From: a virus
Direction: 5' to 3' (one strand)
Virus record (IMG/VR): IMGVR_UViG_3300025158_000018
Length of the DNA: 64,000 nt
Each line of letters starts with the position of its first letter. The first letter of the stretch is position 1. Below are positions 4,481 to 63,513 of the stretch, one piece after another. The notes under the pieces are model-generated. The model made no database searches. It had not been told where the DNA came from and worked only from the letters and a program-made list of their open reading frames with translations. Position numbers and translations under genes: made by a program.

Positions 4481-4485
4481 AATAT

Positions 4486-5883: not shown

Positions 5884-5884
5884 T

Positions 5885-6565: not shown

Positions 6566-6600
6566 GACAGGATAGTGTTTGTTGTATCCTATTTATAGTT

Positions 6601-7335: not shown

Positions 7336-7604
7336 AATGTTCGTGAGTTCCGCAGCTAGTATCCCCACTAGGACTAATTTCGCTTTCAACTCTAGCACTG
7401 TCGTTTTTTACCATCAAACGATTAGGTCATGTTAAACAAGGCAACACATGAATTGCACCTTTATTCGACAGCTTTTTCTTTCTTCGAATGTACCCGGCCT
7501 AGTCCTGTACACTCAAGAGTAGCTTACACTCTTTCCAGTCTTCTGGCGACTGGTCTGCCAAATCACCACACCTAAAATATAAGTGCTGAGCTAGGTTTTT
7601 AATT

Positions 7605-7689
7605 TGGTGCCCCCGGTAGGACTCGAACCTACACGCCTCTCGGCAATAGCTTCTAAGGCTATCGTGTCTACCAATTCCACCACAGGGGC
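7605..7689 (-). tRNA. tRNA-Leu (TAG)
   Basis: anticodon stem atagc/gctat, loop ctTAGaa, long variable arm, T-loop TTCGAGT, CCA. Confidence 0.8.
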
Positions 7690-7728
7690 TTTGATTTCAA
7701 ACAATTATATCAGTATATATCACAGTTG

Positions 7729-8109
7729 TCAAGTTTTATTTCGGAATCGAAGCTCATTTAACATAGCCTCTCTCACAATCTCTCCCATGTAGAAACATTC
7801 TTCCAGACATGCTCTAATATGTTCTGAAGACATATCTTTCAACTTCACATAAGTTAAGGGTTGGTCCCCATTCTTACCGTAAGTTCCCCATGTCAATGCC
7901 TCTCTGATTACCTCGTGAGGTTCGTCAGAATAAACATTGAGGTCTATTTCATCACCGTTGGCGCTTCTTCTAGCATAATCCAAACCACCATCAACAATAT
8001 ATGTTTTACCATTGGTTGAGTCCACATACTCGATATAGTCGTGTACATGTCGGCTTTCGAGCACCATGCCATCCGGGGTTTGAATCGCGTTTCGAATAAG
8101 TGTTCTCAT
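7729..8109 (-). CDS. hypothetical protein
   Basis: ORF; 4-nt overlap with next gene. Confidence 0.45.
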   Translation of the reverse strand: MRTLIRNAIQTPDGMVLESRHVHDYIEYVDSTNGKTYIVDGGLDYARRSANGDEIDLNVYSDEPHEVIREALTWGTYGKNGDQPLTYVKLKDMSSEHIRACLEECFYMGEIVREAMLNELRFRNKT

Positions 8110-9131
8110 ATTTCCATCAGCCTTGACATGAATCCTTTCATGGGCCGCTCAGACCCAAAGAAGAAACTACGTCCCTTGTGGGAGCCTTGTCGGAGTCTGG
8201 TATATACGCTGGATAGCTTGTCTATGTTTATTCTGTTGAAAGACATGATTTCATTCCCAGAAGAATCATAAACGCCAGCAGGACCATCCGAAGATTTGAA
8301 CAAAAATCCATCTTGTTCATATTTCCTCGATTCCGACTTCAATAGAGTAAACATCTTGTCGTCATCACCTTCATTTCCCACCACCATGATAGAAGTTTCT
8401 TCTTCATGTGATTCTTTGTCTGTGCCTTGATTTTCAACCCAAGCACCATCAACCCACACAAACCCGAACCCTGCATTACGCAACGACGAAGCCAATTTCT
8501 GATTGGCCGAAATGTTATCTTTCATCGTTCTTTCGCCACGAAACGCAGTAATAATACCAACAGGTTTATTGCTGGTAAAATGATTGTAAACGCGAGACAA
8601 TTTGACCTCGTTGATCATTTCCAAATCTGGTTGTTCTTGAATTGTGGATTCTTTAAGAAATTCTAATGTCATCGCCTCGTCTCCATGACTTTCGTCCAAC
8701 CGATCATTAAGTATATCAGGTGGTTCAACAGTTTGCAAGCGATCTGATTTAATTTCCAGAATTTTCAAATCTACATACGTTCCCATTGTGTTATTGCTGG
8801 TAAAAGTATGGACCCAATTCTTCAAAATTTGTTTGGTTTTTGGTGTTAGAGACCAAAGAGTGACAGACCAGTAGTTCCTATAGTTTCTGACTCGAATCCA
8901 TCCACGCTGTAAGACCAGAGTGATAAGCTCTTCCCGAGCATTGCCCTCTTGATTGTAATTCTCCCCGTGTTTATCATACAAATTCTTAACAAACTCGGAA
9001 GAAACCCCAAATTTGGTTGGGTTTTCAATGACAGTGTGGGAATGCCTTCCGGTTTTGATGATGTCTCCTGTAGGACCTATCCAAAGACCAAGGTTTATAG
9101 GATTCATTTGTTTCAGTTCGGCAAGTTTCAT
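8106..9131 (-). CDS. hypothetical protein (341 aa)
   Basis: long ORF, no motif recognised. Confidence 0.5.
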   Translation of the reverse strand: MKLAELKQMNPINLGLWIGPTGDIIKTGRHSHTVIENPTKFGVSSEFVKNLYDKHGENYNQEGNAREELITLVLQRGWIRVRNYRNYWSVTLWSLTPKTKQILKNWVHTFTSNNTMGTYVDLKILEIKSDRLQTVEPPDILNDRLDESHGDEAMTLEFLKESTIQEQPDLEMINEVKLSRVYNHFTSNKPVGIITAFRGERTMKDNISANQKLASSLRNAGFGFVWVDGAWVENQGTDKESHEEETSIMVVGNEGDDDKMFTLLKSESRKYEQDGFLFKSSDGPAGVYDSSGNEIMSFNRINIDKLSSVYTRLRQGSHKGRSFFFGSERPMKGFMSRLMEI

Positions 9132-9192
9132 GGAAGTGATATACTCGTATTGATCAATTTATTTATACAGTCTTCCTCGGCGTTCCACCTCA

Positions 9193-9639
9193 TTAACAGT
9201 CGAACTTCTCCAAATATTCATTAATCGTTACGAATGCCGTACTGTACTTCTTCATTCTCTCGAAATCCTTTCCACGCAATCCTTTCAGCCGTGTTATGTC
9301 GGAATTATCTCTCAAGTCTTCTCGCTTTACCCTGAGCGCATCTTTATTGTGTTGCATGTCGGAGATATACTCTGAATAAGACTGACCCTCTTTGTGAGTC
9401 AACAGTCTCAGAGCATTGACAACCCTTGAACTGAAGCCTTCTCTTTCCAAGTCCTCAAAGGTCAAATCAGAATCTTCGACTGCATCGTGTAAAATAGCAA
9501 TGCACATTAGCTCTTCGTCATCTGTGCGAAGCCTCATGGCGATTCTCATTGGATGGAGAATGTATGCCTTGCCACCTTTGTCTCTTTGCCCTAGATGTGC
9601 CTGTGAGGCGAGCAGAACAGCCTTATCAAACATCATCAT
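9193..9639 (-). CDS. HD-domain hydrolase resembling RelA/SpoT-type (p)ppGpp hydrolase domain (small alarmone hydrolase-like)
   Basis: LASQAHLGQRDKGGKAYILHP .. AILHDAVED pattern typical of RSH hydrolase HD domain. Confidence 0.55.
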   Translation of the reverse strand: MMMFDKAVLLASQAHLGQRDKGGKAYILHPMRIAMRLRTDDEELMCIAILHDAVEDSDLTFEDLEREGFSSRVVNALRLLTHKEGQSYSEYISDMQHNKDALRVKREDLRDNSDITRLKGLRGKDFERMKKYSTAFVTINEYLEKFDC

Positions 9640-9808
9640 CTCCTACTGAAATGGTATAAACCCGATAGGTAATGTGCGGACCATGTTTAAGACTTTGGGC
9701 ATATTTTTCAGCCTTTATTCCATCGAAAAACGCCCTAGAATGTATATTGAGAACATCGTCGCCTTTGTACTCGTAATTGGGACAAACTATGTAGATTTCT
9801 TGTGTCAT
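9626..9808 (-). CDS. hypothetical small protein
   Basis: ORF. Confidence 0.3.
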   Translation of the reverse strand: MTQEIYIVCPNYEYKGDDVLNIHSRAFFDGIKAEKYAQSLKHGPHITYRVYTISVGDDDV

Positions 9809-9837
9809 GATATTTCTCCTTATTTACAGGTCCCCTT

Positions 9838-10126
9838 GACTTCTCCTCTTCCTTTAGGAAGAGGATTCTTGTTTCACAGTCCACTACATTGTTCTCTACA
9901 AGAACTTTAGATTTATGTCGGACTCCGCAAGCTATCCCCGTATGCCCCACGGTTCTTTTTTCTACCACTTTTAAGGCAGATGTTTTTTTACAATATTATT
10001 CAGCACTTGGTTCTCGATACTGAATATTTTATATTGTACCACTATCTAGTGTTTATGCCAAGTGGTGAAATTTTTAGAATTTGTCCCCTCCCTGAAGGAA
10101 GGGGTCTTCTTTGTTTTCTTGATAAA
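9838..10126. repeat. copy A of ~300-bp inverted repeat (partner at 49681..49986)
   Basis: reverse complement aligns at roughly 90-95% identity by eye to 49681..49986; includes hairpin cctcttcc-ttta-ggaagagg and 3' end of CDS 10074..10715. Confidence 0.75.
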
Positions 10127-10715
10127 CCATTTTGATTTTCTTCTTCAGTTCTGGAATGGTAATGCCCCGTTCGGCTCCTTTAAAGAAGAACCCGCGAAAG
10201 TCAGATTCGACAAACGATCCAATAGGTTTGACCGAATCTTCAACAACTACCCTACCATTAGCTACAGTGAACAACAGGATCGGCTTGGCGTCTTCTTCGC
10301 AGGTCTCCCCGTCAAACAGTTGGCAACGGAGATTTAGGAAAGGAAAAGCTTCAGCGATCAGTCCCCACTCGGCGGCAACAGCTTCTACATCAGGCCATTT
10401 TCCGATGTTCTTGTTGTTACAACCAATTGTACCATCCCAATCACACCAACCATTCGGACCGCCTATCCAACAACTCATGATACGTTCATTTGTCAGATAG
10501 TAGAGGTCGAGAACCTTGTAGGTTTCTCGATTCTTCTCGGATGCTTCGATCCATGAAATGCCATCATCACTTTCTTTTACAAGGGGGGAACAGACTCTGA
10601 ACTTGTTCCGAAAACTCTTGATCGTTACAACTCCATCGAAAGTTAGGAAGATTGGAATCGGTACGCAGAAGGATTTCCGCAGCCTGTTCTTCAGTAACGT
10701 TGTCACCCTGAACAA
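10074..10715 (-). CDS. hypothetical protein
   Basis: ORF; C-terminus lies inside repeat copy A. Confidence 0.5.
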   Translation of the reverse strand: MFRVTTLLKNRLRKSFCVPIPIFLTFDGVVTIKSFRNKFRVCSPLVKESDDGISWIEASEKNRETYKVLDLYYLTNERIMSCWIGGPNGWCDWDGTIGCNNKNIGKWPDVEAVAAEWGLIAEAFPFLNLRCQLFDGETCEEDAKPILLFTVANGRVVVEDSVKPIGSFVESDFRGFFFKGAERGITIPELKKKIKMVYQENKEDPFLQGGDKF

Positions 10716-10769
10716 TCATTCCGGGCCATTTGTTGGTAATCTCACGGGTATTCTTGAATGTCACGTTGT

Positions 10770-11069
10770 TCATATTTGTTCCTCATTATTCTCGAAAAAA
10801 GGCTTCTCCTTATCAATCATATCACCAATCAAAGAAATTTTTTCCTGATCAGAGTATGATTGTTCTGACAAAATTTGTTTTACGTTTTTCAGAACAGAGT
10901 TATATTGAGCCATTGTATCCTTGAGAGCAGCATTAAACAAAATCTCGGAAATCAATGAATTTAAAGTCATTCCCCTTCTGTCTGCTTCTTTCGCCAGCGT
11001 CAGAACGTCTTTGTCCTCAAGTTCAACTTCAATGTTGACATACCCGTCCGATTCATTTTGTATGCCCAT
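10770..11069 (-). CDS. ribbon-helix-helix (CopG/Arc-like) DNA-binding protein, putative
   Basis: N-terminal beta-strand plus helices VELEDKDVLTLAKEADRRGMTLNSLISEIL. Confidence 0.4.
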   Translation of the reverse strand: MGIQNESDGYVNIEVELEDKDVLTLAKEADRRGMTLNSLISEILFNAALKDTMAQYNSVLKNVKQILSEQSYSDQEKISLIGDMIDKEKPFFENNEEQI

Positions 11070-11217
11070 GTGTCTGTTCCTTTCGCATTACCTGATACTA
11101 ATTATACATTAACCCCGGAAGGTTCGTCAAGTCCTTCTACCCTATTTCCAACCACTTGCGGTGGATCATTACGGACCGTGGGCTAATACGGGCATAGTGA
11201 CGCGGGGTAAAATTTTA

Positions 11218-11400
11218 CTATGTGTTAACAAATGCTTCATGCAATACGACTGAATCCATTGAAGCAATAATTGCGCCTTTGTTGAATGCTTCGATCATTG
11301 CGTTATGAATATCGTCAAAATTCATATTGTCTTCTGAAATACCCCACTCCTTGAGTATTTCATCTACTGTCGTCACACACATTTTCATAATCTTCTCCAA
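11218..11400 (-). CDS. hypothetical small protein
   Basis: ORF. Confidence 0.3.
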   Translation of the reverse strand: MEKIMKMCVTTVDEILKEWGISEDNMNFDDIHNAMIEAFNKGAIIASMDSVVLHEAFVNT

Positions 11401-11411
11401 TGTATTTGAAA

Positions 11412-11488
11412 TGGTGGGACCGGGAGGACTCGAACCTCCAACCTGCCGATTATGAGTCGGACGCTCTAACCGATTGAGCTACGGTCCC
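11412..11488 (-). tRNA. tRNA with CAT anticodon; features favour tRNA-Ile2 (lysidine) over Met
   Basis: perfect acceptor gggaccg/cggtccc, D-arm like E. coli Ile2 as recalled, loop ctCATaa with A31-T39; TilS gene encoded at 14734..15378. Confidence 0.8.
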
Positions 11489-11608
11489 AAATCTTATCCA
11501 CCCACCCCAAATCCTGTTTTTGAATTATTCTCAAAGTAAAACATACACTCTTCCGTATGCCGGTCTTGACTTTGAGACAATGTTACTTTAGACCATCAAC
11601 ATGAGATC

Positions 11609-11636
11609 ATTATACCCTATTTATTACCCTTGTCAA
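11609..11636 (-). promoter_or_regulatory. sigma70-like promoter (TTGACA-16-TATAAT), ~115 nt upstream of tRNA 11412..11488
   Basis: minus strand ttgacaagggtaataaatagggtataat. Confidence 0.4.
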
Positions 11637-11654
11637 GAAGGAATCACTCAGCAA

Positions 11655-12062
11655 TTAATACGCTGCTAGACCCACTTTAAGTGAACCACCTGCCATCTTA
11701 GCCGCAACCTGATAAATTTGATCTAGGTTGATAAACTCCATTTGTTTACTGGTAATTGCGCAAGACCAACCAGTAAGATAACGAAAATTTTCATTACCGA
11801 CCTCTATTAAAACACAACAAGTGTCATCTGTCAAGTGCTTCTGAATAATATCTTGAATATCTACATCTACATAATCACCCAAGTCATCGTCGAAGTAATT
11901 GGCAGGAAAGTTCCCGTCTCCTGAAGAAAAAATCTTGACTTCGTTAGTTTCCTCGTCAACAACATGCAATTCAATGTCAAGAGAACCCATATCTTCAAAA
12001 AACTTATCTAGGTCTTTGACTTTGAACACATTACTACGACCCGTACCTTGCCAGTATGCCAT
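11655..12062 (-). CDS. hypothetical protein
   Basis: ORF. Confidence 0.45.
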   Translation of the reverse strand: MAYWQGTGRSNVFKVKDLDKFFEDMGSLDIELHVVDEETNEVKIFSSGDGNFPANYFDDDLGDYVDVDIQDIIQKHLTDDTCCVLIEVGNENFRYLTGWSCAITSKQMEFINLDQIYQVAAKMAGGSLKVGLAAY

Positions 12063-12096
12063 TGTTTTTCTCCTTTAAGTTGAAAATCTTCAAAGC

Positions 12097-12552
12097 TCAA
12101 TCATCCCCAGACTTGCAGAATTCGACAAATTCTGCAAGAGTTCCACTCCACTTGTTGCAAGTGATTTCCTCGACTCCCGCAACGAGAGCATTGTCTGGTT
12201 CCCGAAAATATACAGTATAGTCATAAGCTTGTGAGTCGCCCTCGTCAGTCATATACAAACCTCCGACACGATCCTTATTCTGGGCGATGAACTGGGCAAC
12301 CAAGCAGCCCGGTCCGTTCGCATGGGTTCCGAGGCGAGCATCTGAACCAATACCATGGATAATTTTGATACCAGACAAAAACTCTGCCAAAGTCACACCC
12401 ACACTATCGGGGTAACCATCATACTGCTGATAGACACTGGCAATATGGCGCACTTGGTATTCACTACGTTCTTTGAAATGAATTACACTAGGGGTTCCCA
12501 TTGTTTTCTCCTTTAATTTCGGGTTCATCCTTCTCAGTGTTGATTTCTTCAA
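12097..12552 (-). CDS. hypothetical protein
   Basis: ORF. Confidence 0.45.
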   Translation of the reverse strand: MKKSTLRRMNPKLKEKTMGTPSVIHFKERSEYQVRHIASVYQQYDGYPDSVGVTLAEFLSGIKIIHGIGSDARLGTHANGPGCLVAQFIAQNKDRVGGLYMTDEGDSQAYDYTVYFREPDNALVAGVEEITCNKWSGTLAEFVEFCKSGDD

Positions 12553-12892
12553 TCTGTTGATTCAACCATGATTCCAATAGTTCGAAACTCTTGCTACCAA
12601 CAGACTGTACATGTTCGCTGTTAACCATGTTGAGCGCACCTTCATAACCAAGCGCACCAGCAACAATAATAACGACACCTTCGCGGTCTGGTACGAATGT
12701 TTTTACCATAAGGCCACCAATCAAGAAAAATGAAAGAATGATCAGAGCACCCTTTTCCCACAAAGTTTTCATGAAAGTACGGCCCTTAAGATCACTAAAG
12801 ATAAGACTAAAAAGCAACAACGAAAGCAACGAAAACCCAGACACAGCAATCACGCCCGTTGCGACAGAACGAAAATTATCTACCATCGTCAA
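12488..12892 (-). CDS. hypothetical membrane protein
   Basis: two hydrophobic segments. Confidence 0.4.
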   Translation of the reverse strand: MTMVDNFRSVATGVIAVSGFSLLSLLLFSLIFSDLKGRTFMKTLWEKGALIILSFFLIGGLMVKTFVPDREGVVIIVAGALGYEGALNMVNSEHVQSVGSKSFELLESWLNQQIEEINTEKDEPEIKGENNGNP

Positions 12893-12967
12893 AATATATA
12901 AAGAAGAAATACTACAGAACCTGTGCTCATTTTTTATTACTCCTGTTTGGTTTGAGATTACAGTATA

Positions 12968-13414
12968 TCAGGAATTTTCCAGACTTTCAAGCTGTTTAAT
13001 CTTGAGAGCGAAAAGTTCTCGATACGATTCGGCTAAATGGTCCCATTCGGGCTTGTAATCCTCATGAATAATAGAATCCTGAGTAAAGAATTGACTGTGT
13101 GAATTATGCCATTCCCACTTGTAGTTATCCACATCAAGAACTTTTAACTGTTCCGGAACCTCACCAGTCCCCTTGTAATGTTCCAGATCGGAAAGAGTTG
13201 GCTGATAGTGAATGGCTGAAATCAGTTTGACAGCAGACGTTAGAAGGTCTGCGGTATCACGAAAAACCTTATCAGAGCAACCACAATCACCAAAAGCCCT
13301 ACGCGAATAGATACTTTCTGGCAACCATGTTGCGAGATCCAATCCTAAATTAGAAATGTCATCCATCTCCCGGACGATATCTCTCATTTGGTCGATGATG
13401 CTTAAATTAAACAT
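12968..13414 (-). CDS. hypothetical protein
   Basis: ORF. Confidence 0.45.
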   Translation of the reverse strand: MFNLSIIDQMRDIVREMDDISNLGLDLATWLPESIYSRRAFGDCGCSDKVFRDTADLLTSAVKLISAIHYQPTLSDLEHYKGTGEVPEQLKVLDVDNYKWEWHNSHSQFFTQDSIIHEDYKPEWDHLAESYRELFALKIKQLESLENS

Positions 13415-14049
13415 TACATTGTTCCTTGAATTTGACTTAGTAAAAGTTTTAATCTTCCAGATTCATCTTGAGACAATTCTTTGTTCTTTGCCCAATAGCC
13501 AACCGGAGGTTTAATGATTCCGTGTTTTTTACAATATTTACCTATGGCTGAATCTGATATACCCATAATACTAGCAAGATTTGAGGTGGATGTCAACCAA
13601 ATAAGTTCTTTCAAAACTTCAGGCTTTATACTTATTTTCCTTGAGGATTCTGCGGCACATCTTTTACTACAATATTTTTTTCTTTTTCTGGAATTTCTTT
13701 TAAATTTATTCCCACACATCTGACACACTGAGTGCTTTTCATTATCAGACATAAGTTCATATCCGTTTAGTGTAACGCCACGTTCTTCTATATGCCCTCT
13801 AGCATGCACCGAAATATCTGTTATTTCTAAATTATTGAGGCTGTTATTTTTCCTATTTCCGTCTTTGTGATGAACTACCTCTGTTGGTAGTAGATTTCTT
13901 TGAAGGCTTTCTGCAACAACATAGCGGTGATAATATAATTTTCCAGATTTGTTCGACATCGGGTGATAGGGAGCATACACCACCATGTACCCCAAATGTT
14001 TATCCTCCCAAACCCTAGTACTCTTTTCAAGTGCGATAAATTTCTTCAT
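13414..14049 (-). CDS. HNH endonuclease (HNH_3-type) with C-terminal Zn-ribbon/HTH region
   Basis: VVHHKDGNRKNNSLNNLE HNH motif; CQMCG..C..C; sits between tRNA-Arg and upstream genes. Confidence 0.7.
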   Translation of the reverse strand: MKKFIALEKSTRVWEDKHLGYMVVYAPYHPMSNKSGKLYYHRYVVAESLQRNLLPTEVVHHKDGNRKNNSLNNLEITDISVHARGHIEERGVTLNGYELMSDNEKHSVCQMCGNKFKRNSRKRKKYCSKRCAAESSRKISIKPEVLKELIWLTSTSNLASIMGISDSAIGKYCKKHGIIKPPVGYWAKNKELSQDESGRLKLLLSQIQGTM

Positions 14050-14106
14050 GAAGCCCTCTCGACTAACATACTTTTTATTTATATGTTAGTCGAGAGTTTG
14101 TAATAA

Positions 14107-14182
14107 TGGCACCCTCTACAGGACTCGAACCCATACTAAGGGAGTAGAAATCCCTTGTGCTATCCAGTTACACCAAAAGGGC
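14107..14182 (-). tRNA. tRNA-Arg (TCT)
   Basis: anticodon stem aggga/tccct, loop ttTCTac, T-loop TTCGAGT, CCA; TTGACA-17-TAGTAT promoter at 14193..14221 (minus). Confidence 0.85.
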
Positions 14183-14263
14183 TATTATTTTTATACTACC
14201 ACCAAGATCAAAACCTGTCAACTACTTAACGTTCTTCCATCAAAGAACAAAGTAGTAATCGTT

Positions 14264-14674
14264 TTAATTGTTTCTATCAACCCAATTTACAGTTGGACAA
14301 TACTTATTCTTCCAACCACTAATAGTTTCCCGGATGATTCCCGGTTCCGAATTAGTAGATTTTTCCCAAAGTTGGATACTGTACGCAAACCCCACACATG
14401 CCGCCATTGTTGTAATAATTATCCAGACAATTAACGCCCAAAGAGCGAACGTAAAGAAAATAAACGGGCCACCAAATAAAACCACCACCAACTGAATTGT
14501 TCCTAGGACGAACATTCCCGCCAATGTCCCAAATGCAATTAGACAGAAGGTTAATATGGCTAGGCGAGTCCATAGTTGGCAAAGATTGTTGATATAGTAC
14601 GGGTTGGCCGGTTCCCAGAACTCCCCATACCGATGCAAAAAAGAATAAACTTGGCTGTTCTTTGAAATGTTCAT
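14264..14674 (-). CDS. hypothetical membrane protein
   Basis: multiple hydrophobic helices. Confidence 0.45.
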   Translation of the reverse strand: MNISKNSQVYSFLHRYGEFWEPANPYYINNLCQLWTRLAILTFCLIAFGTLAGMFVLGTIQLVVVLFGGPFIFFTFALWALIVWIIITTMAACVGFAYSIQLWEKSTNSEPGIIRETISGWKNKYCPTVNWVDRNN

Positions 14675-14733
14675 TGTGTGTTCTCCTGTTAGTTTAATCG
14701 TATGGTTGATTGTGTCACGCTTTTATATTCTTG

Positions 14734-15378
14734 TCAACCACTTAACTGTATCAGTGAATTATACTGCTCTTGTACCTTCTTTGCAAGAACTTTATGAATT
14801 CCCGGATTGACTTCGAGAACCTTGGGGACAAGCTCATGACGAATCTTGTTTCGCATGAATCCAGTATTCTCGTTTGAAGGATCATTGATATAAGGAACAG
14901 AATTACGCTCTGCCCATTCCAAAATTTCTTCTTTCTTAGCCATCAACATAGGCCGAAAACAATTTCCCCGCATGTACGGAACGATCTTAGGTGTTCCGTG
15001 AAAACTGGAAAACAGCCAAGTTTCTAAAACATCATCAAGATGATGCGCCAGTAAAATAGGTTCCGGATATCCGTGTTTTTCTGCCCTGTCGAAAAATGAA
15101 TATCGACGTTCACGCCAGAAATCTTCTTTGGACCTCTTTTCGGGAACGGGATCACGAAGTTCATCAGAAATAAACCCCACGCCCAAGGATTCAGAAACAT
15201 TTTTGACGAAAGAAAAAGCGTCGTCGGCGTGTTCCGTCCCATGATGATAGTGCAACACATTGATCTTCCTACGACCGTTGATTAAAAAGTCAAGAAGGAC
15301 CATAGAATCTACCCCACCAGAAACCGCCACATTGACCCGTTCTGGGATTTCTCCCAACATTCTCATCACGGGAACCAC
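14734..15378 (-). CDS. tilS: tRNA(Ile)-lysidine synthetase, catalytic N-terminal PP-loop domain
   Basis: PP-loop VAVSGGVDSMVLL, LHYHHG, RRYSFF, LAHHLDDVLETWLF, FRPML..EIL.WA...VPYINDPSN...RNKIR collinear with E. coli TilS as recalled. Confidence 0.8.
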   Translation of the reverse strand: MVPVMRMLGEIPERVNVAVSGGVDSMVLLDFLINGRRKINVLHYHHGTEHADDAFSFVKNVSESLGVGFISDELRDPVPEKRSKEDFWRERRYSFFDRAEKHGYPEPILLAHHLDDVLETWLFSSFHGTPKIVPYMRGNCFRPMLMAKKEEILEWAERNSVPYINDPSNENTGFMRNKIRHELVPKVLEVNPGIHKVLAKKVQEQYNSLIQLSG

Positions 15379-15608
15379 TCGAACAAGATCATTCCCAGCA
15401 TGTGAAACCCCGAAAGAATGACAAAAACTACCGCGATGGTGCCCAAAATGCCAATGAGAACGCAGTATGCAAAGACGAAAAGAATTCCAATGTAGAACCG
15501 AAAAGTATCCGGGTCATCACCAAAGATAGCAATAACAATATCCACCGGCAACATGAATACAGTGATGAGGATTGAGGTCAAAGTGTAGGACACGCTGCTG
15601 TTTTCCAT
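15366..15608 (-). CDS. hypothetical membrane protein
   Basis: hydrophobic ORF. Confidence 0.4.
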   Translation of the reverse strand: MENSSVSYTLTSILITVFMLPVDIVIAIFGDDPDTFRFYIGILFVFAYCVLIGILGTIAVVFVILSGFHMLGMILFEWFP

Positions 15609-15669
15609 TTTAGTTCCTGTGAGTGAATTCTATAAGAGCATACTACCATGAAAAAATCGATATGTCAAA

Positions 15670-16245
15670 TTATAGAAGTGAACGGTTTTTGAATAGTCGT
15701 TGGAATTGTTGGAAATTTTCTTCTGTAATCATGTGAATTCTGGGGGGCTTGAACCAATAATCGAGACTGGATAGTGCAGCTTCATCATCTGCATAGTATT
15801 CTGACAGCCAGTTGTATACTGTAGAAGCGAACAAAATGCCGTGTCCCTCTTCTCGAATCTTACTCTTGCCCTTTAGGTCATAGTCAATAAAACATTCTAC
15901 CACGACATGAGCCAACTCGTGGAAGACGTATGACGGATACATCATGTTATGTTCCACCCAGATCAATCCATGTCTGGGTCCCAACGTCTTTCCCCAAGAA
16001 TAACTCATGGCAGACCGTGCTTCTGGGTATAACTGTTCGACTCTAACCCCACACTTTTGAGAGATAGAGCGAACAAGCTTAGAGGCTTCAGCTTGATTGA
16101 TCTCATACTCCCTCTTGTAGAAGGAGTCATGAAACCTAGTAAAGATGTCTTCCTGCCAGTCTATCTCTCGTGGAAACTTTGTTTTTTTCTGCGGATGGGA
16201 TTGATTCACGCTTTGTACAAACTTGAGTTGGTCAATCCACTGCAT
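15670..16245 (-). CDS. putative Zn-metallopeptidase-like protein (HExxH)
   Basis: YVFHELAHVV motif. Confidence 0.4.
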   Translation of the reverse strand: MQWIDQLKFVQSVNQSHPQKKTKFPREIDWQEDIFTRFHDSFYKREYEINQAEASKLVRSISQKCGVRVEQLYPEARSAMSYSWGKTLGPRHGLIWVEHNMMYPSYVFHELAHVVVECFIDYDLKGKSKIREEGHGILFASTVYNWLSEYYADDEAALSSLDYWFKPPRIHMITEENFQQFQRLFKNRSLL

Positions 16246-16726
16246 CTTTCGGTCGATATTCCTCTATAGTTTTCTCACAGAAGCCATACACATCCCGCGA
16301 GTACTTGATAATGGTACTGATATGTGTCCAATCATCATGCAAATGATCGATGTTCATATACGCCAACCGTGTCAGTGTCAGACAGGACCTCCACTTAAGA
16401 ACATCCACAGGATTGTCCCCGAAGATGTACTCAAGGTCCATATGAACGCTGGTGCGATACGCAGTGTCCACCGCCTTGATCATCGTGAAGATGTTCCGCC
16501 GAAAATTCTGGTTCTGTAGGAACAACATGTAGGTGTCCAGATCGATAGCGTAGTGCTTCGCCCTTTCACTGCTCCCCAATCCGGGAATGTTAGGAAAAAA
16601 ATACCAACACCAATGGGTTTCCTTTCGACCTTGAACTGAAATCTCGAATAGAGCATTGGTAAGATGTTTTTTCTGCATTCTAGTGTAATCATCTAGAAGT
16701 CTTGCTTTGTCACCATTCTGGATCAT
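16232..16726 (-). CDS. DUF1810-like protein
   Basis: HWCWYFFPNIPGLGSSERAKHYAI resembles DUF1810 signature as recalled. Confidence 0.45.
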   Translation of the reverse strand: MIQNGDKARLLDDYTRMQKKHLTNALFEISVQGRKETHWCWYFFPNIPGLGSSERAKHYAIDLDTYMLFLQNQNFRRNIFTMIKAVDTAYRTSVHMDLEYIFGDNPVDVLKWRSCLTLTRLAYMNIDHLHDDWTHISTIIKYSRDVYGFCEKTIEEYRPKDAVD

Positions 16727-17363
16727 ACGTATAACCTCGGTTGATAATTTTTTCGAAACAATCTTTTAGTGAAGTCGGAGGACAGTCCTGAGACATAGAA
16801 CTGTAACTTAGTTTACCTAGCATCCACTCGTCTTTATCACGATCCAGCATGATCAGGTAATTCACTCCGGAAGCAAATCCGTCGTTCGTATACAATGTGA
16901 TCCCAACACCTTTACGATTTTTACACCCAACCTTGTGGGTAAGTTCGTAGTTGTCGAGAAGCATATTCAACGATTTTTCGAATTCTTCAAAACTGGTATT
17001 CTTTCTTACACGAATTTCCATCCCGTATGTTTTTTGTTGATTCATGTGGTCATAATACGACACAAAGTCGTTAAAGACCGTAGAAGGTAAATTGTACTTG
17101 GCATTTGGCCACGAATTATAAACCTTTTGTGTTACTGCCGCATCGTTGTCTTTTTTCTTACACCACCACAACCAATCCAAAACATCTTTGGTGGTATGTA
17201 CGTCAGGGTCAAACATGACGTTGTGCTTGCGATCCACCAGAGCAACCACGTTACCGGGCATCCCTTCGTCCAAATACTTTTGAAATTTTTCACGCAACGC
17301 ATCCAGATTTTTCCTGTCAGAACTTTGAATCTTTCTGGATCGGGAATATTTCCCGAAATCCAT
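16710..17363 (-). CDS. hypothetical protein
   Basis: ORF. Confidence 0.5.
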   Translation of the reverse strand: MDFGKYSRSRKIQSSDRKNLDALREKFQKYLDEGMPGNVVALVDRKHNVMFDPDVHTTKDVLDWLWWCKKKDNDAAVTQKVYNSWPNAKYNLPSTVFNDFVSYYDHMNQQKTYGMEIRVRKNTSFEEFEKSLNMLLDNYELTHKVGCKNRKGVGITLYTNDGFASGVNYLIMLDRDKDEWMLGKLSYSSMSQDCPPTSLKDCFEKIINRGYTYDPEW

Positions 17364-17548
17364 TCTCGTGCTTCCTTCGCACTAGGGAATTCCGTAGCAG
17401 AATTCAACAAAAAAAACATAATTTGCGCCGTTTTTGGTTAGTCGAATGAACATGCCAAATTTTGTAAGACCATCTACTTGAATGATTGCTTTCATGTGAG
17501 TATTCTATCCTATGGAAAGGGTCTTGTCAACCCCCATGTTAGAAAATT

Positions 17549-17622
17549 TGGTACCTCGTGACAGAATCGAACTGCCGTCATCGCTGTGTAAGAGCGTGGT
17601 TCTTCCATTGAACTAACGAGGC
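17549..17622 (-). tRNA. tRNA-Val (TAC)
   Basis: acceptor gcctcgt/acgaggt, D-stem gttc/gaac, loop ctTACac, T-arm ggcag-TTCGATT-ctgtc, CCA; missed by my first pass, found by T-loop scan. Confidence 0.75.
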
Positions 17623-17629
17623 ATTGTTT

Positions 17630-17714
17630 TGGTGCCGAGGGTAGGATTTGAACCTACGGTGTGGAATACTGGGTTACAAAGCCAGTGCAATCGACCAGAC
17701 TATGCGACCTCGGC
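17630..17714 (-). tRNA. tRNA, probably Thr (TGT); unusual 10-11 nt variable region or 9-nt anticodon loop
   Basis: acceptor gccgagg/cctcggc, T-arm gtagg-TTCAAAT-cctac, CCA; anticodon arm folds as ctggc-tttgtaa-cccag (one mismatch) or actgg-9nt-ccagt; TATAAATA 13 nt upstream. Confidence 0.6.
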
Positions 17715-51938: not shown

Positions 51939-52338
51939 TTGATCATTATATTGATATGAGACGGTATTTGCAATACTACTGGCAACAATTAAAATAGAGA
52001 AGGGGACAAGTTAGCTTGTCCCCTTCTGAGCTTTGGTTATACGGATATTGCTCTAACCCGCATTCGATCAAGCTGCTAGGGCGAAGCCGTTAGCGTTGCT
52101 GTCGAAGTCAGCGTCATTTGCTGCATTTATTTTACTATCATTTTTGCGTCTTTGTTGACGATTCTCCTCGATTCCTAATAACGCCCGGTCGATTTCCAGT
52201 TTCGCCCCCTCCAAAAGCGTCCACCATTTCCCGGATTTACCGGGTTTCTGACGCATTACCCAACTCGTCTAAGGCTTTTTTGTTTGCTACGCCGGGAGGA
52301 TGCCCTATCCTTCCTCTGTTGGCACTTGTAGACGCTTT

Positions 52339-52390
52339 TGGAGACGGCGGGAGTCGAACCCGCGTGTCGTTCGCTTTCAGTCTCGTCTCA
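52339..52390 (-). ncRNA. tRNA-like minihelix RNA (acceptor + T-arm only), candidate
   Basis: 6-bp acceptor gagacg/cgtctc contiguous with T-arm gcggg-TTCGACT-cccgc; only 20 nt where D and anticodon arms belong; TATAAATA plus TATAAT 23 nt upstream. Confidence 0.35.
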
Positions 52391-52428
52391 ACGAATGCTT
52401 ATTATTATACCTATTTATATCCAACCCG

Positions 52429-53133
52429 TCAAGTATCTTCGGACAATTTTATTTTAGTCTTTTTCTTAGTAGTTTTTTTTCTTCCACTGGATACCAATTT
52501 ACCATCCAAGGGGGTTTTGGGAGTAATGTCTTCTGTCTCAAGTAAAGAATTCTTCTCTCCAGCTTCTAAACGAGCAATAAGCTGGTCGGAATCCATCCAG
52601 ATATCTCGACCATCAACTACATGGTCGATCTCTTCTTCTGTAAGAATTTTCTCATAAAACTTTCTCATTATTTTTTCCACATAGCCGTTTACATGCTCTA
52701 CTCTCGTTCTAATTTCATGCCCCTTTCCGATTGCAAAACCGCCAGAATAGTTGTGTATCATAAAAGAACAATTCGGATTGATGATATACTCTTCCCCAGA
52801 TAAAAAAATCAAAGTCGCTGCAGAATGGGCATCTCCGTCTAAAGAAGTAATCACTTTGGCTCTAGATGCGACCATAGAGTTCACAATCTGTATTGCCATT
52901 CTAAGAGAACCGCCTTCACTGTTGATGTAAATTACTATAGTATCCTCTTCATTAGCGGTTTTTAACACATTGAGTAGGTCTGAATACTTGTTAATATCAT
53001 CCTCTATCTCTCCAGACAGATAAAAGTGGTGAACATTTAATTGCAAGCTTTGTACGTAATGCTTAATTTTTGGTGGATCAATCCTAAAAGAAGAACCATC
53101 CTCGAATCTTTCGTCAATTGCTTTATTTGACAT
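52429..53133 (-). CDS. ClpP-family (S14) serine protease homolog
   Basis: INSEGGSL and MIHNYSGG blocks; basic C-terminal tail. Confidence 0.65.
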   Translation of the reverse strand: MSNKAIDERFEDGSSFRIDPPKIKHYVQSLQLNVHHFYLSGEIEDDINKYSDLLNVLKTANEEDTIVIYINSEGGSLRMAIQIVNSMVASRAKVITSLDGDAHSAATLIFLSGEEYIINPNCSFMIHNYSGGFAIGKGHEIRTRVEHVNGYVEKIMRKFYEKILTEEEIDHVVDGRDIWMDSDQLIARLEAGEKNSLLETEDITPKTPLDGKLVSSGRKKTTKKKTKIKLSEDT

Positions 53134-55122: not shown

Positions 55123-55660
55123 TTATGAGCGCTTTTCTACCCAATTTGGATCAAGATCTTGCATATATTCTTTCGAAATTTTTAGTACAGTTCCGCCATA
55201 TTTGTTCGTCAACTTATCTAGATTTTCTTCGGACAAGTCGTCACCCACATTATAGGACAAAGTTACATGAGGGATGTACTCTGGAAAATCGTAAGTAGCG
55301 CCATGATCTAATGTGGTCTGGTGTTTATCTCTCAAGTAGTCTGAATCGAGGGCCGCTACCAAGCAGCGACCACCGTCTTTCGTATTAAAAATTTTAAATC
55401 CCTTGATTTTTTGCTTCTTTTGGTTCTTCGAGTTCTTCATCAGGCTGATAACCTTTAATGTCTGTTACACTATGGGCTATCGTAGAATGAAAATCTTCTG
55501 GGTTTGTTGGGTTCGGTATTTTGTCCCCGTCGATTATTTTTTTGATTTGTTCAACGGTTTCTGGGGTGAAATTTACCCCTACGTATTTCCCCACAGATAC
55601 ACCTAATTCTGAATCAGAACTAACTGGTCTCTTCGGATACTTCAATTCTCTCAATATCAT
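55123..55660 (-). pseudogene. 2H-phosphoesterase (LigT/ThpR-like) split by a +1 frameshift at an A6 run
   Basis: upstream ORF carries FHSTIAHS (H-x-T-x #1); downstream ORF in +1 frame carries PHVTLSY (H-x-T-x #2); frames meet at gcaaaaaatcaagg ~55395-55410; removing one A fuses them into ~170 aa. Confidence 0.5.
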
Positions 55661-55994
55661 TTGATTTCCTCGTATCTTTCATATGTTCGAGGTATTTATC
55701 AACCAATTCTCCGAGTATCTTTTTTATGTTAGTTTCTGATTCACTATGATGGATAATAGCTGATCGTTGTTCTCCATCATGATCAAACTTCATATACATC
55801 GAGCTGTGACAAGACACAGACACGTACCACTCTCCCCTACATAATGCAAACGATACAGTTAAATCTTCGTCGCCTAGTTTTTTAGCAAAATCCTCTAGGA
55901 TGTTATAAACGCTTTTAGTTTTCAATTTTATTCTCCCTGATCTCGATTTAAAATATACAATTCCACCATATGGGGGGTGCCATCTAACCCCCAT
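55620..55994 (-). CDS. hypothetical protein
   Basis: ORF; overlaps frd by 66 nt. Confidence 0.35.
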   Translation of the reverse strand: MGVRWHPPYGGIVYFKSRSGRIKLKTKSVYNILEDFAKKLGDEDLTVSFALCRGEWYVSVSCHSSMYMKFDHDGEQRSAIIHHSESETNIKKILGELVDKYLEHMKDTRKSNDIERIEVSEETS

Positions 55995-56865: not shown

Positions 56866-57603
56866 ATGAAAAAGTCTAAGAAAAAGAGCCTACATGTAGT
56901 TCAACACGACAACCTAGCTCGCCAAGAATATAACAACAACTGCAAATCACTCTCGTTCCACGACTTGAAGGCCATTAAACCCCTAACAACACCACAAAAA
57001 CAGATGATGGAATCTTATTTTTCCGGAAACTCTATCTTTGCATCCGGTTCTGCCGGGACGGGAAAAAGCTTGGTGGCGTTATATCTAGCATTGAACGATT
57101 TGTTGGACCGGGACCAACCTATTGAACACGTCAAGATAATTAGAAGTGTTGTACCGACCAGAGAAGTTGGATATTTGCCGGGTTCGATAGATGAAAAAAT
57201 TTCTGTATATGAAACCCCATATAGAGAATTGTTCTCGTTCTTGTTTGACATGCCAACGTCATACGACAAATTCAAGGAGAGTGGTAAAGTAGAATTCATG
57301 CCAACAAGTTTCTTGCGAGGACAAACGTGGGACAACTCTGTTATTGTTGTTGACGAAGTCCAAAACCTCAATTTCCACGAAGTCAATACTGTTATGACAC
57401 GAGTTGGTAGAAATAGTAAAATAATTCTGGTCGGCGACTCCAATCAATCTGATTTGTTCAAATCCAATAGGGATATATCATGTATTGAACGTCTAGACAA
57501 GGTTCTTTCTAATAACAACTTCTTTGACACCATATACTTCCAGAGACAAGACATAGTTCGAAGTGATTTTGTTAGAGCTTGGATTGAATGCATTGAAGAT
57601 TGA
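56866..57603 (+). CDS. phoH: PhoH-like ATPase
   Basis: Walker A GSAGTGKS, Walker B VVDEVQN, GD.NQ.D. Confidence 0.85.
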   Translation: MKKSKKKSLHVVQHDNLARQEYNNNCKSLSFHDLKAIKPLTTPQKQMMESYFSGNSIFASGSAGTGKSLVALYLALNDLLDRDQPIEHVKIIRSVVPTREVGYLPGSIDEKISVYETPYRELFSFLFDMPTSYDKFKESGKVEFMPTSFLRGQTWDNSVIVVDEVQNLNFHEVNTVMTRVGRNSKIILVGDSNQSDLFKSNRDISCIERLDKVLSNNNFFDTIYFQRQDIVRSDFVRAWIECIED

Positions 57604-61330: not shown

Positions 61331-62761
61331 TTACCAATTTGTTCGGGCGTTGGTGCGGACCTCTTCAAACGTCATATCCCGTACCAATTTTCCATTCAGG
61401 AATACCTCTTCCAGTAGTTCTATGTCTGTCGGAAGTTTCTCTTCCTCTCTAATGGTGATGGGTAGTCGGACACCGGATCGCTTAACTAATATAACCCGAC
61501 CCGCCTTAGAAGCCTTAGTGGGGTCAGTCTCAGTAGTTTTACATACTTCTCGAATTTCTCCATCAACTTCCACATACGAGCCCTTCATAGCAAAACGTAA
61601 CGTATCTCTCGTCAAATCTTGAAGCAAATATCCACCACACCCAAATGTAATATTATCTGCACTGAAGCCTGAGACCTTCATGGTCTTCAAAATATTTTCG
61701 ACTTCGGAGAGATTCACACCATCACCTTGAATGATTCTGACCGCTGGATTCAAAACTTTAAAACCCTTGTCATTTATAGTGTAGCCGTAAGAATCGGAAA
61801 GCTTGTTCAACGCAAGCATAACCATTTCTGTGGGATTTCCACTGTCTGGACGAATCACCACAGTACCACCCTTTTCTTCTATCTTTTCCCGAAGCTCTGC
61901 CCAAATATTAAGAGCGTTTTCGAACGAATAAGTGTCGCTAACTACAGAAACCATCTTACCCTCGCCACCGTATACATCAATGGCGCGCTCAAAAAACTTC
62001 TTCTCGTTGCCCGGACCTTCTGCAATAGTAACCGTGTGCTCCGTCGCCGGAATTGAAAACCCTGTTACAACCGGAGAATTATAGTACTCCATACAGGCGA
62101 GAATCCCAACAATATTGTCAGTTGCCATGAAATTGACCAAGTGTGCTGCACCAGCAATCTCACTCGACTGCTTAGAAGATGCCCCACGTGCCCCAAAATC
62201 AACAAACTTGAAGTCGATGAGGTCGGGGTCACCAGTTTCTTCCAAGTAACTGGAAATCAATTCCCGGAAACGATATGAGCGCGTTGCGACCGTAGTTCCG
62301 TACCACACGCCACGAAGCAAAGAGGTTTCCACATAGGAAGTGACCCACGCACAATTCTCATCGGTGTTCTCGACAACAACCATCACATTTCCTTCTGGTA
62401 CGTGCATTCCTTCTGGAACTGCGCGAATACTTAAAGGCAAAAACCCGTCACATTCGTTGACTATGTATTCCCAACCTTTCCGGTTGAATGGAAGACCGTG
62501 TGCTGTGATAACGGCTTCGGCCTGATTAACCATTTCCATCGTAACGGGCTTCATTAATGAGGTTTTGATTAAATGTTGAAGACCGAAGAATACTGAAGTG
62601 TCATACTCTCCACCCTTTCGAGCTTCAATATAAGAATACTGTCGGGTGGTTCCGGGTGCCATGAACCCAAAGTGGCTGGTCTTGTACGAGTCGCAATTCA
62701 ATATAGGATTGTTGCTTAATTTGTTCATGTTAAACTCCTTAATCATGTTTTTATAAAGCAA
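61331..62761 (-). CDS. nadV: nicotinamide phosphoribosyltransferase (NadV/NAMPT)
   Basis: N-terminal NCDSYKTSHF, size 476 aa, DFGARG, GDG family blocks. Confidence 0.8.
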   Translation of the reverse strand: MLYKNMIKEFNMNKLSNNPILNCDSYKTSHFGFMAPGTTRQYSYIEARKGGEYDTSVFFGLQHLIKTSLMKPVTMEMVNQAEAVITAHGLPFNRKGWEYIVNECDGFLPLSIRAVPEGMHVPEGNVMVVVENTDENCAWVTSYVETSLLRGVWYGTTVATRSYRFRELISSYLEETGDPDLIDFKFVDFGARGASSKQSSEIAGAAHLVNFMATDNIVGILACMEYYNSPVVTGFSIPATEHTVTIAEGPGNEKKFFERAIDVYGGEGKMVSVVSDTYSFENALNIWAELREKIEEKGGTVVIRPDSGNPTEMVMLALNKLSDSYGYTINDKGFKVLNPAVRIIQGDGVNLSEVENILKTMKVSGFSADNITFGCGGYLLQDLTRDTLRFAMKGSYVEVDGEIREVCKTTETDPTKASKAGRVILVKRSGVRLPITIREEEKLPTDIELLEEVFLNGKLVRDMTFEEVRTNARTNW

Positions 62762-62787: not shown

Positions 62788-63513
62788 TTATTTCCAATAA
62801 TAATTGGAAAATTTTTTGGATGAAGATAACGCAACCCTGTAGTATAATTTGTGAACATTAATACCGAGTTGTCTGGATGCTTCTCGTAGTGATGGATATT
62901 CTTTACCATCTATAATCACTTTTTTTGACTTTCCATTTTTTTCGTTCATTTGTTTTCCTTTATGAGATTCACTCATTTTTTTTCTAGCTTCTTCTGTCGT
63001 TTTTCTTCCAACGAGGGCATCTCGTATTTTTTTCTTATGTTCTGGTGTTCTATTAAGGGCCATTGTTTTTAACCTTTTTCGTTCATGGGGTGTTTGACAT
63101 TTGGCTATAGCTATCCTAGACATTTTCTTTTTTGTTTCTTTTGTATGTTTTCTACCATGCCAATGATGGTTTTCACCCAACAGTAATCCCCCATCCCCAT
63201 ATAATATATTTTTTACCTTTTCATACATTTTACTGTTGGTTACTCTCTCTTCATGATATTTACTTTTAGCTCTCATAGGCATGAATGCTTGAAGTACTTT
63301 CGTGTAATTTTCTACATTATTTTTATGAATATCTATCAACAAGCGGTGACATATATAGTGTTCTCTTGCTGTTAAATAAACTAAATTTTCATTTACATCC
63401 AAACCTCCCAAACACTTTGGAATTATATGATGTTTTTCATAGTACGTGTTAACATCCAGTTTTCTTTCTAAAGCTTTATCAATAATTGAATCATAAACAT
63501 TTTTATAGTTCAT
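62788..63513 (-). mobile_element. free-standing HNH homing endonuclease with NUMOD3 repeats and C-terminal HTH, between nadV and the Nudix gene
   Basis: HHIIPKCLGG..NLVYLTAREH HNH; three HTKETKKKMS / TPEHKKKIRDA / TEEARKKMSESHKGK repeats; IIDGKEYPSLREASRQLGI. Confidence 0.7.

What the first reader, a model, noticed from the sequence alone, without database searches (positions are those of the whole stretch)
55123..55660. 2H phosphoesterase gene broken by a +1 frameshift in an A6 run
Both H-x-T-x motifs of a LigT/ThpR-type RNA 2',3'-cyclic phosphodiesterase are present, but in reading frames offset by one nucleotide. The frames meet at gcaaaaaatcaagg, where one A fewer gives a single ~170-aa protein. 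This could be a sequencing error, a pseudogene, or programmed frameshifting of an RNA-end-healing enzyme.
Basis: seen in the sequence. Interest (0 to 1): 0.5.

Follow-up and report, generated by a model that had tools for sequence, protein, structure and literature searches.

The report
Frameshift-broken anti-CBASS (acb1) phage gene
A phage gene for Acb1, the enzyme that destroys the bacterial CBASS alarm molecules, is cut in two by one extra A that is really in the DNA (dozens of independent assemblies carry it), so it is most likely a recently inactivated counter-defence gene, not a sequencing error or programmed frameshift.

Summary
On the minus strand, ORF 55394..55660 (88 aa, HSTI) and ORF 55123..55440 (105 aa, HVTL) are the two halves of one 2H phosphoesterase, offset by +1. 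They meet at an A6 run (window 55407-55412). Removing one A gives a 178-aa protein.

The interpretation needs two corrections.

1. The family is Acb1, the phage anti-CBASS cyclic-oligonucleotide phosphodiesterase, not LigT/ThpR. Evidence: Pfam PF23474 at 2e-33, and the solved Acb1 structures 7T26/7T27 as best sequence and fold matches.

2. The extra A is not an assembly error. The truncated 88-aa product is on record on 37 contigs in 89 blocks of the collection, from JGI, ENA and Logan. A strain that differs elsewhere also carries A6. The repaired 178-aa product is absent from about 15 billion proteins.

Five syntenic orthologs (64-72% identity) are intact and have no A run at this site. None of 53 environmental acb1 loci switches frame. 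I found no frameshift-stimulating signal, and A/T runs of 6 or more occur 160 times in the window.

The gene shows no other decay. The best reading is a young acb1 pseudogene fixed in this lineage. Cultured phages offer a precedent: loss of acb1 lets them escape Panoptes-type guard systems. Leaky slippage or a two-piece enzyme is not excluded but has no support.

The parts
55123..55660 (-). Whole disrupted acb1 locus (anti-CBASS 2H phosphodiesterase). Repaired length is 178 aa.
   Evidence: PHROG 755. PDB Acb1 7t26 at E 2e-38. Fold match to 7t26/7t27 with target-normalised TM 0.83-0.88.
55394..55660 (-). N-terminal ORF, 88 aa, ending ...KEAKNQGI*. Residues 1-84 are homologous to Acb1 and the last 4 are out-of-frame.
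   Evidence: Acb1 profile positions 2-52, E 2.6e-7. This exact product is on 37 contigs in 89 blocks.
55478..55489 (-). First catalytic motif H58-S-T60-I (CAT TCT ACG ATA).
   Evidence: Read from the sequence. H and T are 100% conserved in 52 other family members. They correspond to H44/T46 of Acb1 (PMC9117128).
55407..55412 (-). A6 run (T6 on the + strand), the site of the single-base insertion. A5 would restore the frame.
   Evidence: The DNA alignment with five orthologs shows one extra base here and no A run in any ortholog. tblastn HSPs switch frame at 55407-55412.
55394..55396 (-). Premature TAA stop in the N-terminal frame, 4 codons after the shift.
55123..55440 (-). C-terminal ORF in the +1 frame (105 aa from the internal ATG at 55438-55440). 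The homologous part starts at I85 (about 55407) and the stop is at 55123-55125.
   Evidence: Acb1 profile positions 52-143, E 4.2e-23. 76-83% identical to the close orthologs. Weak AAAGG 10 nt upstream of the ATG.
55258..55269 (-). Second catalytic motif H131-V-T133-L (CAT GTA ACT TTG), numbered on the repaired protein.
   Evidence: Read from the sequence. Conserved in 52/52 (H) and 51/52 (T) family members. Corresponds to H113/T115 of Acb1.

Best explanation
This is a real single-base insertion (A5 to A6, the kind of change replication slippage makes in a homopolymer) in the acb1 gene of an uncultivated large phage (contigs up to 257 kb). Acb1 is a 2H phosphodiesterase that cleaves CBASS and related cyclic di- and trinucleotide alarm signals, using an HxT/HxT tetrad built from both halves of the protein. 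Here translation from the normal start ends at a TAA four codons after the A run. That gives an 88-aa fragment with only the first HxT motif, and the second motif sits in a +1-frame ORF with no dedicated strong start. The gene is therefore most likely non-functional: a young pseudogene fixed in this near-clonal phage lineage.

Shown: the insertion, its presence in many assemblies, intact orthologs, family membership, and the lack of other decay.

Inferred: loss of function, and the reason for the loss. The reason could be drift in a host without CBASS, or selection to stop triggering a guard system of the Panoptes type, which fires when Acb1 destroys its decoy nucleotides.
For: Family: Pfam Acb1 at 115.5 bits against a cut-off of 27. 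The profile hits solved Acb1 7t26 at 2e-38. The AF2 model (pLDDT 83) is closest to 7t27/7t26, with LigT far behind.

Real DNA, not an artefact: the exact 88-aa truncated product is listed in 89 blocks and on 37 contigs, from JGI, ENA and Logan. The C-terminal products are on 62 contigs. The repaired 178-aa product is absent from about 15 billion proteins. Contigs from ERZ17986945, ERZ22298166 and JGI 3300008003 are 100% identical to the window over 6-8 kb. JGI 3300007985 differs by 2 SNPs and a 2-nt indel in 20.8 kb and still has A6.

Derived state: five orthologs (64-72% identity) in the same DHFR / 101-aa gene / acb1 / NAD-ligase / ClpP synteny are uninterrupted at 178-179 aa and have no A run at the site. 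None of 53 environmental acb1 loci switches frame. acb1 is the only true gene with a frame switch in about 15 kb of synteny.

Young: the catalytic tetrad is intact. Private substitutions number 9, against 1-13 in the intact orthologs. There are 3 departures from family-wide conserved columns, against a mean of 1.8 and a maximum of 9. Identity to relatives is like that of neighbouring genes.

Both histidines are needed: H44A/H113A Acb1 is inactive (PMC9117128).

Precedent and selective rationale: Bas43 carries a natural nonsense mutation in acb1 and escapes Panoptes. Bas35 escapers carry single-nucleotide mutations in acb1 (PMC13577387; PMC12657230). Panoptes escapers in acb2 include frameshifts (PMC12657218).
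Against: The gene carries only this one lesion. The half downstream of the shift is as well conserved as in intact orthologs (76-83%). This fits a very recent event, but it fits continued use of the second half equally well. The +1 frame is open from an internal ATG with a weak AAAGG upstream. Two of the window's unusual substitutions (P69K, G75E) lie next to that ATG. No read-level data, expression data or activity data are available. The population is nearly clonal, so selection after the frameshift cannot be measured.
Confidence: 0.68

Rival explanations
1. Leaky or programmed recoding. A fraction of ribosomes (tRNA-Lys slipping +1 on GCA AAA AAU) or of transcripts (RNA polymerase dropping one A in the A6 run) restores the frame, so some full-length Acb1 is still made. 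The level might be deliberately low.
For: The shift site is a homopolymer on which Lys-tRNA can re-pair in the +1 frame. The downstream half shows no decay. Low Acb1 levels are biologically meaningful: low induction of T4 Acb1 is enough to trigger Panoptes (PMC12657230).
Against: Neither the A run nor the split is present in the five orthologs or in 53 other acb1 loci. There is no SD-like element just upstream, and the 0-frame A-site codon is an ordinary AAU, not a stop or rare codon. The downstream fold is not significant (z = -1.26), and its hairpin starts about 36 nt away. A/T runs of 6 or more occur 160 times in the window, including an in-frame A7 in this same gene, so A6 cannot be an efficient slippage signal here. 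From general knowledge, bacterial transcriptional slippage usually needs runs of about 8-9 or more. No tRNA-Lys and no tRNA with an expanded anticodon loop is present in the window.
Confidence: 0.12
2. Two-piece enzyme. The 88-aa and 105-aa products are both made, the second from the internal ATG at 55440. They reassemble into an active 2H fold, each half contributing one HxT motif.
For: The break falls at the turn of a beta hairpin (model strands 75-92) near the pseudo-symmetry midpoint of the fold. The +1 frame is open from an in-frame ATG with AAAGG 10 nt upstream (dG -3.4, against a gene-start mean of -3.9). The unusual substitutions P69K (which creates the AAAGG) and G75E (which makes the second codon AAG) flank that ATG. 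In four of five orthologs the same +1 frame hits a stop within 4 codons (read).
Against: The SD-like match is no better than many random ATGs: 26% of background ATGs score -4.0 or lower. The ATG is a by-product of conserved Asp-Gly/Glu codons. It lies 47 nt inside the translated upstream ORF. I know of no split 2H enzyme, and none appeared among 58 relatives. The reading of the substitutions is post hoc.
Confidence: 0.08
3. Assembly or sequencing artefact. The true sequence is A5 and the gene is intact.
For: Homopolymers are classic sites of indel error. Coverage of two of the contigs is only about 8-9x (contig names).
Against: The same A6 consensus appears in assemblies from three pipelines and many samples (89 blocks, 37 contigs), including a strain with independent SNPs. 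No A5 product is on record anywhere. The SPAdes-style, JGI and Logan contig names suggest short-read assemblies. From general knowledge, short-read data are not prone to errors at 6-base runs.
Confidence: 0.04

Closest known systems
Acb1 (anti-CBASS protein 1; T4 gene 57B; Erwinia phage FBB1 Acb1, PDB 7T26/7T27)
   Same: Same Pfam family (PF23474) over the full profile. Same HxT/HxT tetrad, the same 2H fold as best structural match, and phage-encoded.
   Different: About 30-40% identity to characterised members. It has an extra conserved 23-residue N-terminal extension. The reading frame is broken between the two motifs, so a single active polypeptide is not encoded.
Naturally inactivated acb1/acb2 alleles in cultured phages (Bas43 gp260 nonsense mutation; Bas35 and T4 Panoptes escapers)
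   Same: A point lesion inactivates an otherwise intact anti-CBASS gene while close relatives keep it intact. The known selective benefit is escape from Panoptes guard systems.
   Different: Here the lesion is a homopolymer frameshift in an uncultivated environmental large phage. Host, host defences and phenotype are unknown.
LigT/ThpR RNA 2',3'-cyclic phosphodiesterase
   Same: Same 2H superfamily, with two HxT/S motifs and a similar size.
   Different: The Pfam 2_5_RNA_ligase2 hit is only 24 bits, below the 27-bit cut-off. LigT structures match at TM about 0.45-0.5, against 0.83-0.88 for Acb1. The substrate class inferred from family membership is cyclic oligonucleotide signals, not RNA ends.
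Programmed +1 frameshifting (prfB type) and transcriptional slippage at A runs (dnaX of Thermus, IS elements)
   Same: Two overlapping frames joined at a slippery homopolymer.
   Different: There is no conservation of the site, no stop or rare codon at the shift, no upstream SD stimulator, and the run is only 6 long.

Membership tests
Acb1 (PF23474, anti-CBASS 2H phosphodiesterase) | Sequence match to the family profile above the curated threshold | tested here: met
The fragments score 30.9 and 82.1 bits. The profile hits PDB Acb1 7t26 at 2e-38.
Acb1 (PF23474, anti-CBASS 2H phosphodiesterase) | HxT/HxT catalytic tetrad | tested here: met
   H58/T60 and H131/T133 are present and align with columns that are invariant or nearly so in 52 other family members. 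They are equivalent to H44/T46/H113/T115.
Acb1 (PF23474, anti-CBASS 2H phosphodiesterase) | Compact 2H fold closest to solved Acb1 | tested here: met
Foldseek top hits are 7t27/7t26, E 1e-13, target-normalised TM 0.83-0.88.
Acb1 (PF23474, anti-CBASS 2H phosphodiesterase) | Both motifs encoded in one uninterrupted polypeptide | tested here: not met
   The two motifs are in frames offset by +1, with a TAA 4 codons after the A6 run.
Acb1 (PF23474, anti-CBASS 2H phosphodiesterase) | Hydrolysis of 3'3'-cGAMP / cA3 and protection from CBASS | not testable with these tools
   Needs biochemistry or phage genetics.
LigT/ThpR (2'-5' RNA ligase / RNA 2',3'-cyclic phosphodiesterase) | Match to the LigT / 2_5_RNA_ligase2 family above threshold, and closest structural neighbours | tested here: not met
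   PF13563 scores 24 bits against a cut-off of 27. LigT chains rank below all Acb1-type structures, with TM about 0.45-0.5.
Programmed ribosomal +1 frameshift | Shift site and two-frame arrangement conserved among orthologs | tested here: not met
   Five of five close orthologs are single ORFs without an A run at the site. None of 53 environmental loci is multi-frame.
Programmed ribosomal +1 frameshift | Stimulatory context (stop or rare codon in the A site, SD-like element about 3 nt upstream, or nearby structure) | tested here: not met
   The A-site codon is AAU and the upstream sequence GAAGAACCAAAAGAAGC has no SD. The downstream fold has z = -1.26, and its hairpin is about 36 nt away.
Transcriptional slippage site | Long A/T run, unusual for the genome | tested here: not met
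   The run is A6. There are 160 A/T runs of 6 or more in 64 kb, including an in-frame A7 in the same gene.
Pseudogene (recent) | Frame disruption relative to intact orthologs, present in the real DNA | tested here: met
Pseudogene (recent) | Relaxed constraint or further lesions | tested here: inconclusive
   There is no further stop or indel. Substitution counts are within the range of intact orthologs. The population is too clonal to measure selection.

The most novel reading that the evidence does not exclude
The A-tract frameshift is not simple decay but a way of tuning or toggling an anti-defence gene that is caught between opposing host systems: CBASS, which Acb1 defeats, and Panoptes-type guards, which Acb1 triggers. 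Three forms are possible: (a) a reversible A5/A6 ON-OFF switch maintained in the phage population, (b) very low-level full-length Acb1 made by slippage, or (c) a naturally split two-piece 2H enzyme whose halves each carry one HxT motif.
Probability: 0.12. Interest if true: 0.6.

Novelty: new member of a known kind. Interest (0 to 1): 0.3.

Why it matters
The gene is re-identified as a counter-defence gene (acb1), not an RNA repair enzyme. It is an environmental example of a phage lineage that carries a freshly broken anti-CBASS gene while all its known relatives keep it intact. Laboratory work has recently shown that phages lose acb1 or acb2 to escape guard systems that sense signal destruction. 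A frameshifted acb1 fixed in a wild population would be field evidence for that trade-off. Apart from that, it is an ordinary pseudogene and not a recoding signal.

Tried and rejected
- **BLAST against cultured phages.** Megablast and blastn of the locus against 50,697 phage records found no relatives beyond short PhoH matches. tblastn found only Acb1 homologues below 60% identity, all in one piece.
- **Allele pattern scans.** Scans for the junction with A5 to A7 found nothing in viral contigs, metagenome contigs or genome contigs. These collections apparently do not hold this phage, so A5 versus A6 could not be counted there. The count came instead from exact protein look-ups.
- **Closer relatives.** The search for related loci found no relative between 72% and 100% identity. 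The frameshift therefore cannot be dated, and dN/dS within the frameshifted clade cannot be computed. dN/dS between orthologs was not run, because synonymous sites would be saturated at 64-72% amino-acid identity.
- **SD strength before the internal ATG.** Not decisive.
- **RNA structure downstream of the shift.** Not significant.
- **Frameshift-suppressor tRNA.** The window has 11 ordinary tRNAs, none for Lys and none with an expanded anticodon loop.
- **Sample identity.** A literature search for the sample identifiers found nothing, so environment and host remain unknown.
- **Rejected outright.** The LigT/ThpR assignment, and the idea that the split is conserved in the family.

Full report
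**What is in the sequence.** The feature lies on the minus strand. ORF 55394..55660 encodes 88 aa (MILRELKYPKRP...HSTIAH...EEPKEAKNQGI*). ORF 55123..55440 encodes 105 aa (MKNSKNQKKQKIKGFKIF...HVTLSY...WVEKRS*) in the frame one nucleotide downstream. The frames meet at GAA GCA AAA AAT CAA GGG ATT TAA. The A6 run is at window 55407-55412 and the premature TAA is at 55394-55396. Removing one A gives GCA AAA ATC AAG GGA TTT... and a single 178-aa ORF.

**What the gene is.** The repaired protein matches Pfam PF23474 (anti-CBASS protein Acb1) at 2.2e-33, in one stretch over positions 2-143 of the 144-position profile. The two fragments match positions 2-52 and 52-143. The 2_5_RNA_ligase2 family scores 24 bits, below its cut-off of 27. 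PHROG 755 gives 8e-39. A profile of the protein and its relatives finds solved Acb1 of phage FBB1 (7T26/7T27) at 2e-38. An AlphaFold model (pLDDT 83, pTM 0.76) has 7T27/7T26 as best fold matches, with target-normalised TM 0.83-0.88. The Burkholderia phage BCSR5 phosphodiesterase, deposited as an anti-CBASS Acb1, comes next. LigT, plant CPDase and similar structures match only at TM about 0.45-0.59.

[quoted passage not shown] In the window the equivalents are H58/T60 in the first ORF and H131/T133 in the second. These residues are invariant or nearly so in 52 other family members.

**Is the extra A real?** The exact 88-aa truncated product is indexed in 89 blocks of the public assembly collection. 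It is recorded on 37 contigs from JGI, ENA and Logan, the longest 256,834 bp. The C-terminal products, with different start calls, are on 62 contigs. The repaired 178-aa sequence is not present among about 15 billion proteins.

Contigs from ENA ERZ17986945 (152 kb), ENA ERZ22298166 (228 kb) and JGI 3300008003 are 100% identical to the window over 6-8 kb, including the A6 run. A contig from JGI 3300007985 differs from the window by two SNPs and a 2-nt indel in 20.8 kb, so it is an independent strain or sample. It has the same split. A one-off assembly error is therefore excluded in practice. Only read pile-ups could reveal a minority A5 allele.

**Comparison with relatives.** Five proteins of 178-179 aa are 64-72% identical over the full length. 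Where the contig extends beyond acb1, the neighbourhood is conserved: an NAD-dependent DNA ligase follows acb1 in every such contig, then ClpP where the contig reaches it. In the P0001- and P0004-type contigs, DHFR and a short (92-101 aa) gene precede acb1 as in the window. In the P0005-type contigs, about 3.4 kb of other genes lie between DHFR and acb1. In a DNA alignment the window has exactly one extra base relative to all five, located at the A run. The orthologs read TCGCAT, AACTAT, TAGTAT, TAGAAT and ATCTAT there, so none has an A run. The invariant A83 (first frame) and I85 (second frame) confine the insertion to GC[A6]TC.

Across about 15 kb of synteny, acb1 is the only genuine gene whose match switches frame. 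Among 53 further environmental acb1 loci, none is multi-frame. The split is thus a derived, lineage-specific state and not a family feature.

**State of the gene apart from the frameshift.** There is no other stop or indel. The window has 9 substitutions at sites where the five orthologs agree, against 1-13 for the orthologs themselves. The N half is 60-69% identical to them and the C half 76-83%, both within the ortholog-to-ortholog range. Against family-wide conserved columns it has 3 departures (P69K, G75E, R112K), where the mean is 1.8 and the maximum 9. Neighbouring genes are 61-88% identical to the same relatives. So either the frameshift is recent compared with the lineage's divergence, or the second half is still used.

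**Tests of recoding.**
- The 0-frame codon after the slippery AAA is an ordinary AAU.
- No Shine-Dalgarno-like element precedes the site.
- The 87 nt downstream fold no better than shuffles (z = -1.26), and the only clear hairpin starts about 36 nt away.
- A/T runs of 6 or more occur 160 times in the 64-kb window (GC 40.5%), and the same gene has an in-frame A7.
- The window's 11 tRNAs include no tRNA-Lys and none with an unusual anticodon loop.

Together with the lack of conservation, this gives no support for programmed frameshifting. Low-level spontaneous slippage cannot be excluded.

**Tests of a split enzyme.** In the model the junction (K84|I85) lies at the turn of a beta hairpin (strands 75-92), roughly at the midpoint between the two motif-bearing halves. 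The +1 frame is open from an internal ATG (55438-55440) that has AAAGG 10 nt upstream. Its anti-SD pairing energy is -3.4 kcal/mol, against a mean of -3.9 for called gene starts and -2.5 for all ATGs. Since 26% of background ATGs reach -4.0, this is not distinctive.

It is curious that two of the window's unusual substitutions flank this ATG: P69K creates the AAAGG, and G75E makes the second codon AAG. In four of five orthologs the same +1 frame hits a stop within four codons (read). This is a post hoc observation, and I give it little weight.

**Known biology that fits a loss.** Guard systems of the Panoptes type keep an effector silent with decoy cyclic nucleotides and fire when a phage protein removes them.
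- T4 escapers of Panoptes carry loss-of-function mutations, including frameshifts, in acb2 (PMC12657218).
- Bas35 escapers of type II Panoptes carry single-nucleotide mutations in acb1 (PMC13577387).

A frameshifted acb1 in a wild phage is therefore a new instance of a known pattern. Whether selection or drift fixed it here cannot be decided without knowing the host.

**Verdict.**

| Explanation | Confidence |
|---|---|
| Real frameshift mutation fixed in the lineage, in an acb1 anti-CBASS gene: a young pseudogene | about 0.68 |
| Leaky slippage | 0.12 |
| Two-piece enzyme | 0.08 |
| Artefact | 0.04 |

The finding is sound as an observation and ordinary in kind. Its interest is moderate to low, except as possible field evidence for the CBASS/Panoptes trade-off.

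Noticed in passing
window 51977-52429 (-), next to the ClpP gene 52429-53133 (-); also L001:13225-13658 and L070:12638-13090: The phage encodes a permuted (two-piece) tmRNA (Rfam RF04321, 60.9 bits; ARAGORN tag AANDADFDSNANGFALAA*). It directly abuts a ClpP-family protease gene. A related phage (L001) has one at the same place with a similar tag. A tmRNA paired with ClpP in a phage is unusual, and the permuted type may hint at the host group.
   Followed up: partly
window 3378-17714 (-): Cluster of 11 tRNA genes (His, Met x2, Pro, Tyr, Leu x3, Arg, Val, Thr). The tRNA-Thr(tgt) at 17630-17714 is 85 nt, which is long for a Thr tRNA.
   Followed up: no
window 61331-62761 (-) and 62788-63513 (-); L070:553-3736: A NAMPT gene (PF18127 + PF04095) is separated from a NUDIX gene (seen in L070) by a NUMOD3 homing-endonuclease-like gene. 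NAMPT plus Nudix resembles the NARP2 NAD+-reconstitution counter-defence mentioned in PMC12028318. The phage would then keep at least one other anti-defence module while acb1 is broken.
   Followed up: partly
window 63493-63494: Strain polymorphism: the JGI 3300007985 contig (L070) lacks the dinucleotide AT here, at the start of the NUMOD3 gene, which shifts its first ATG out of frame. Two further SNPs lie at window 63277 and 53500. These are the only differences in 20.8 kb.
   Followed up: partly
window 55620-55660 (-): The first 41 nt of acb1 overlap the end of the upstream 101-aa gene of unknown function (55620-55925, no Pfam hit). An overlap of 20-41 nt with the corresponding short gene is also seen in the orthologous contigs that carry it (L001, L002, L003, L008, L009, L010). 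The 23-residue N-terminal extension of this Acb1 clade is conserved but modelled with low confidence.
   Followed up: partly
L001:7016-8794: In a related phage the PhoH-like gene is 592 aa, with LAGLIDADG / Hom_end hits that suggest an intein or homing-endonuclease insertion. The window's PhoH (56866-57603, +) is the plain 245-aa form. L001 also has an alternative oxidase (AOX) gene after the tmRNA that the window lacks.
   Followed up: no
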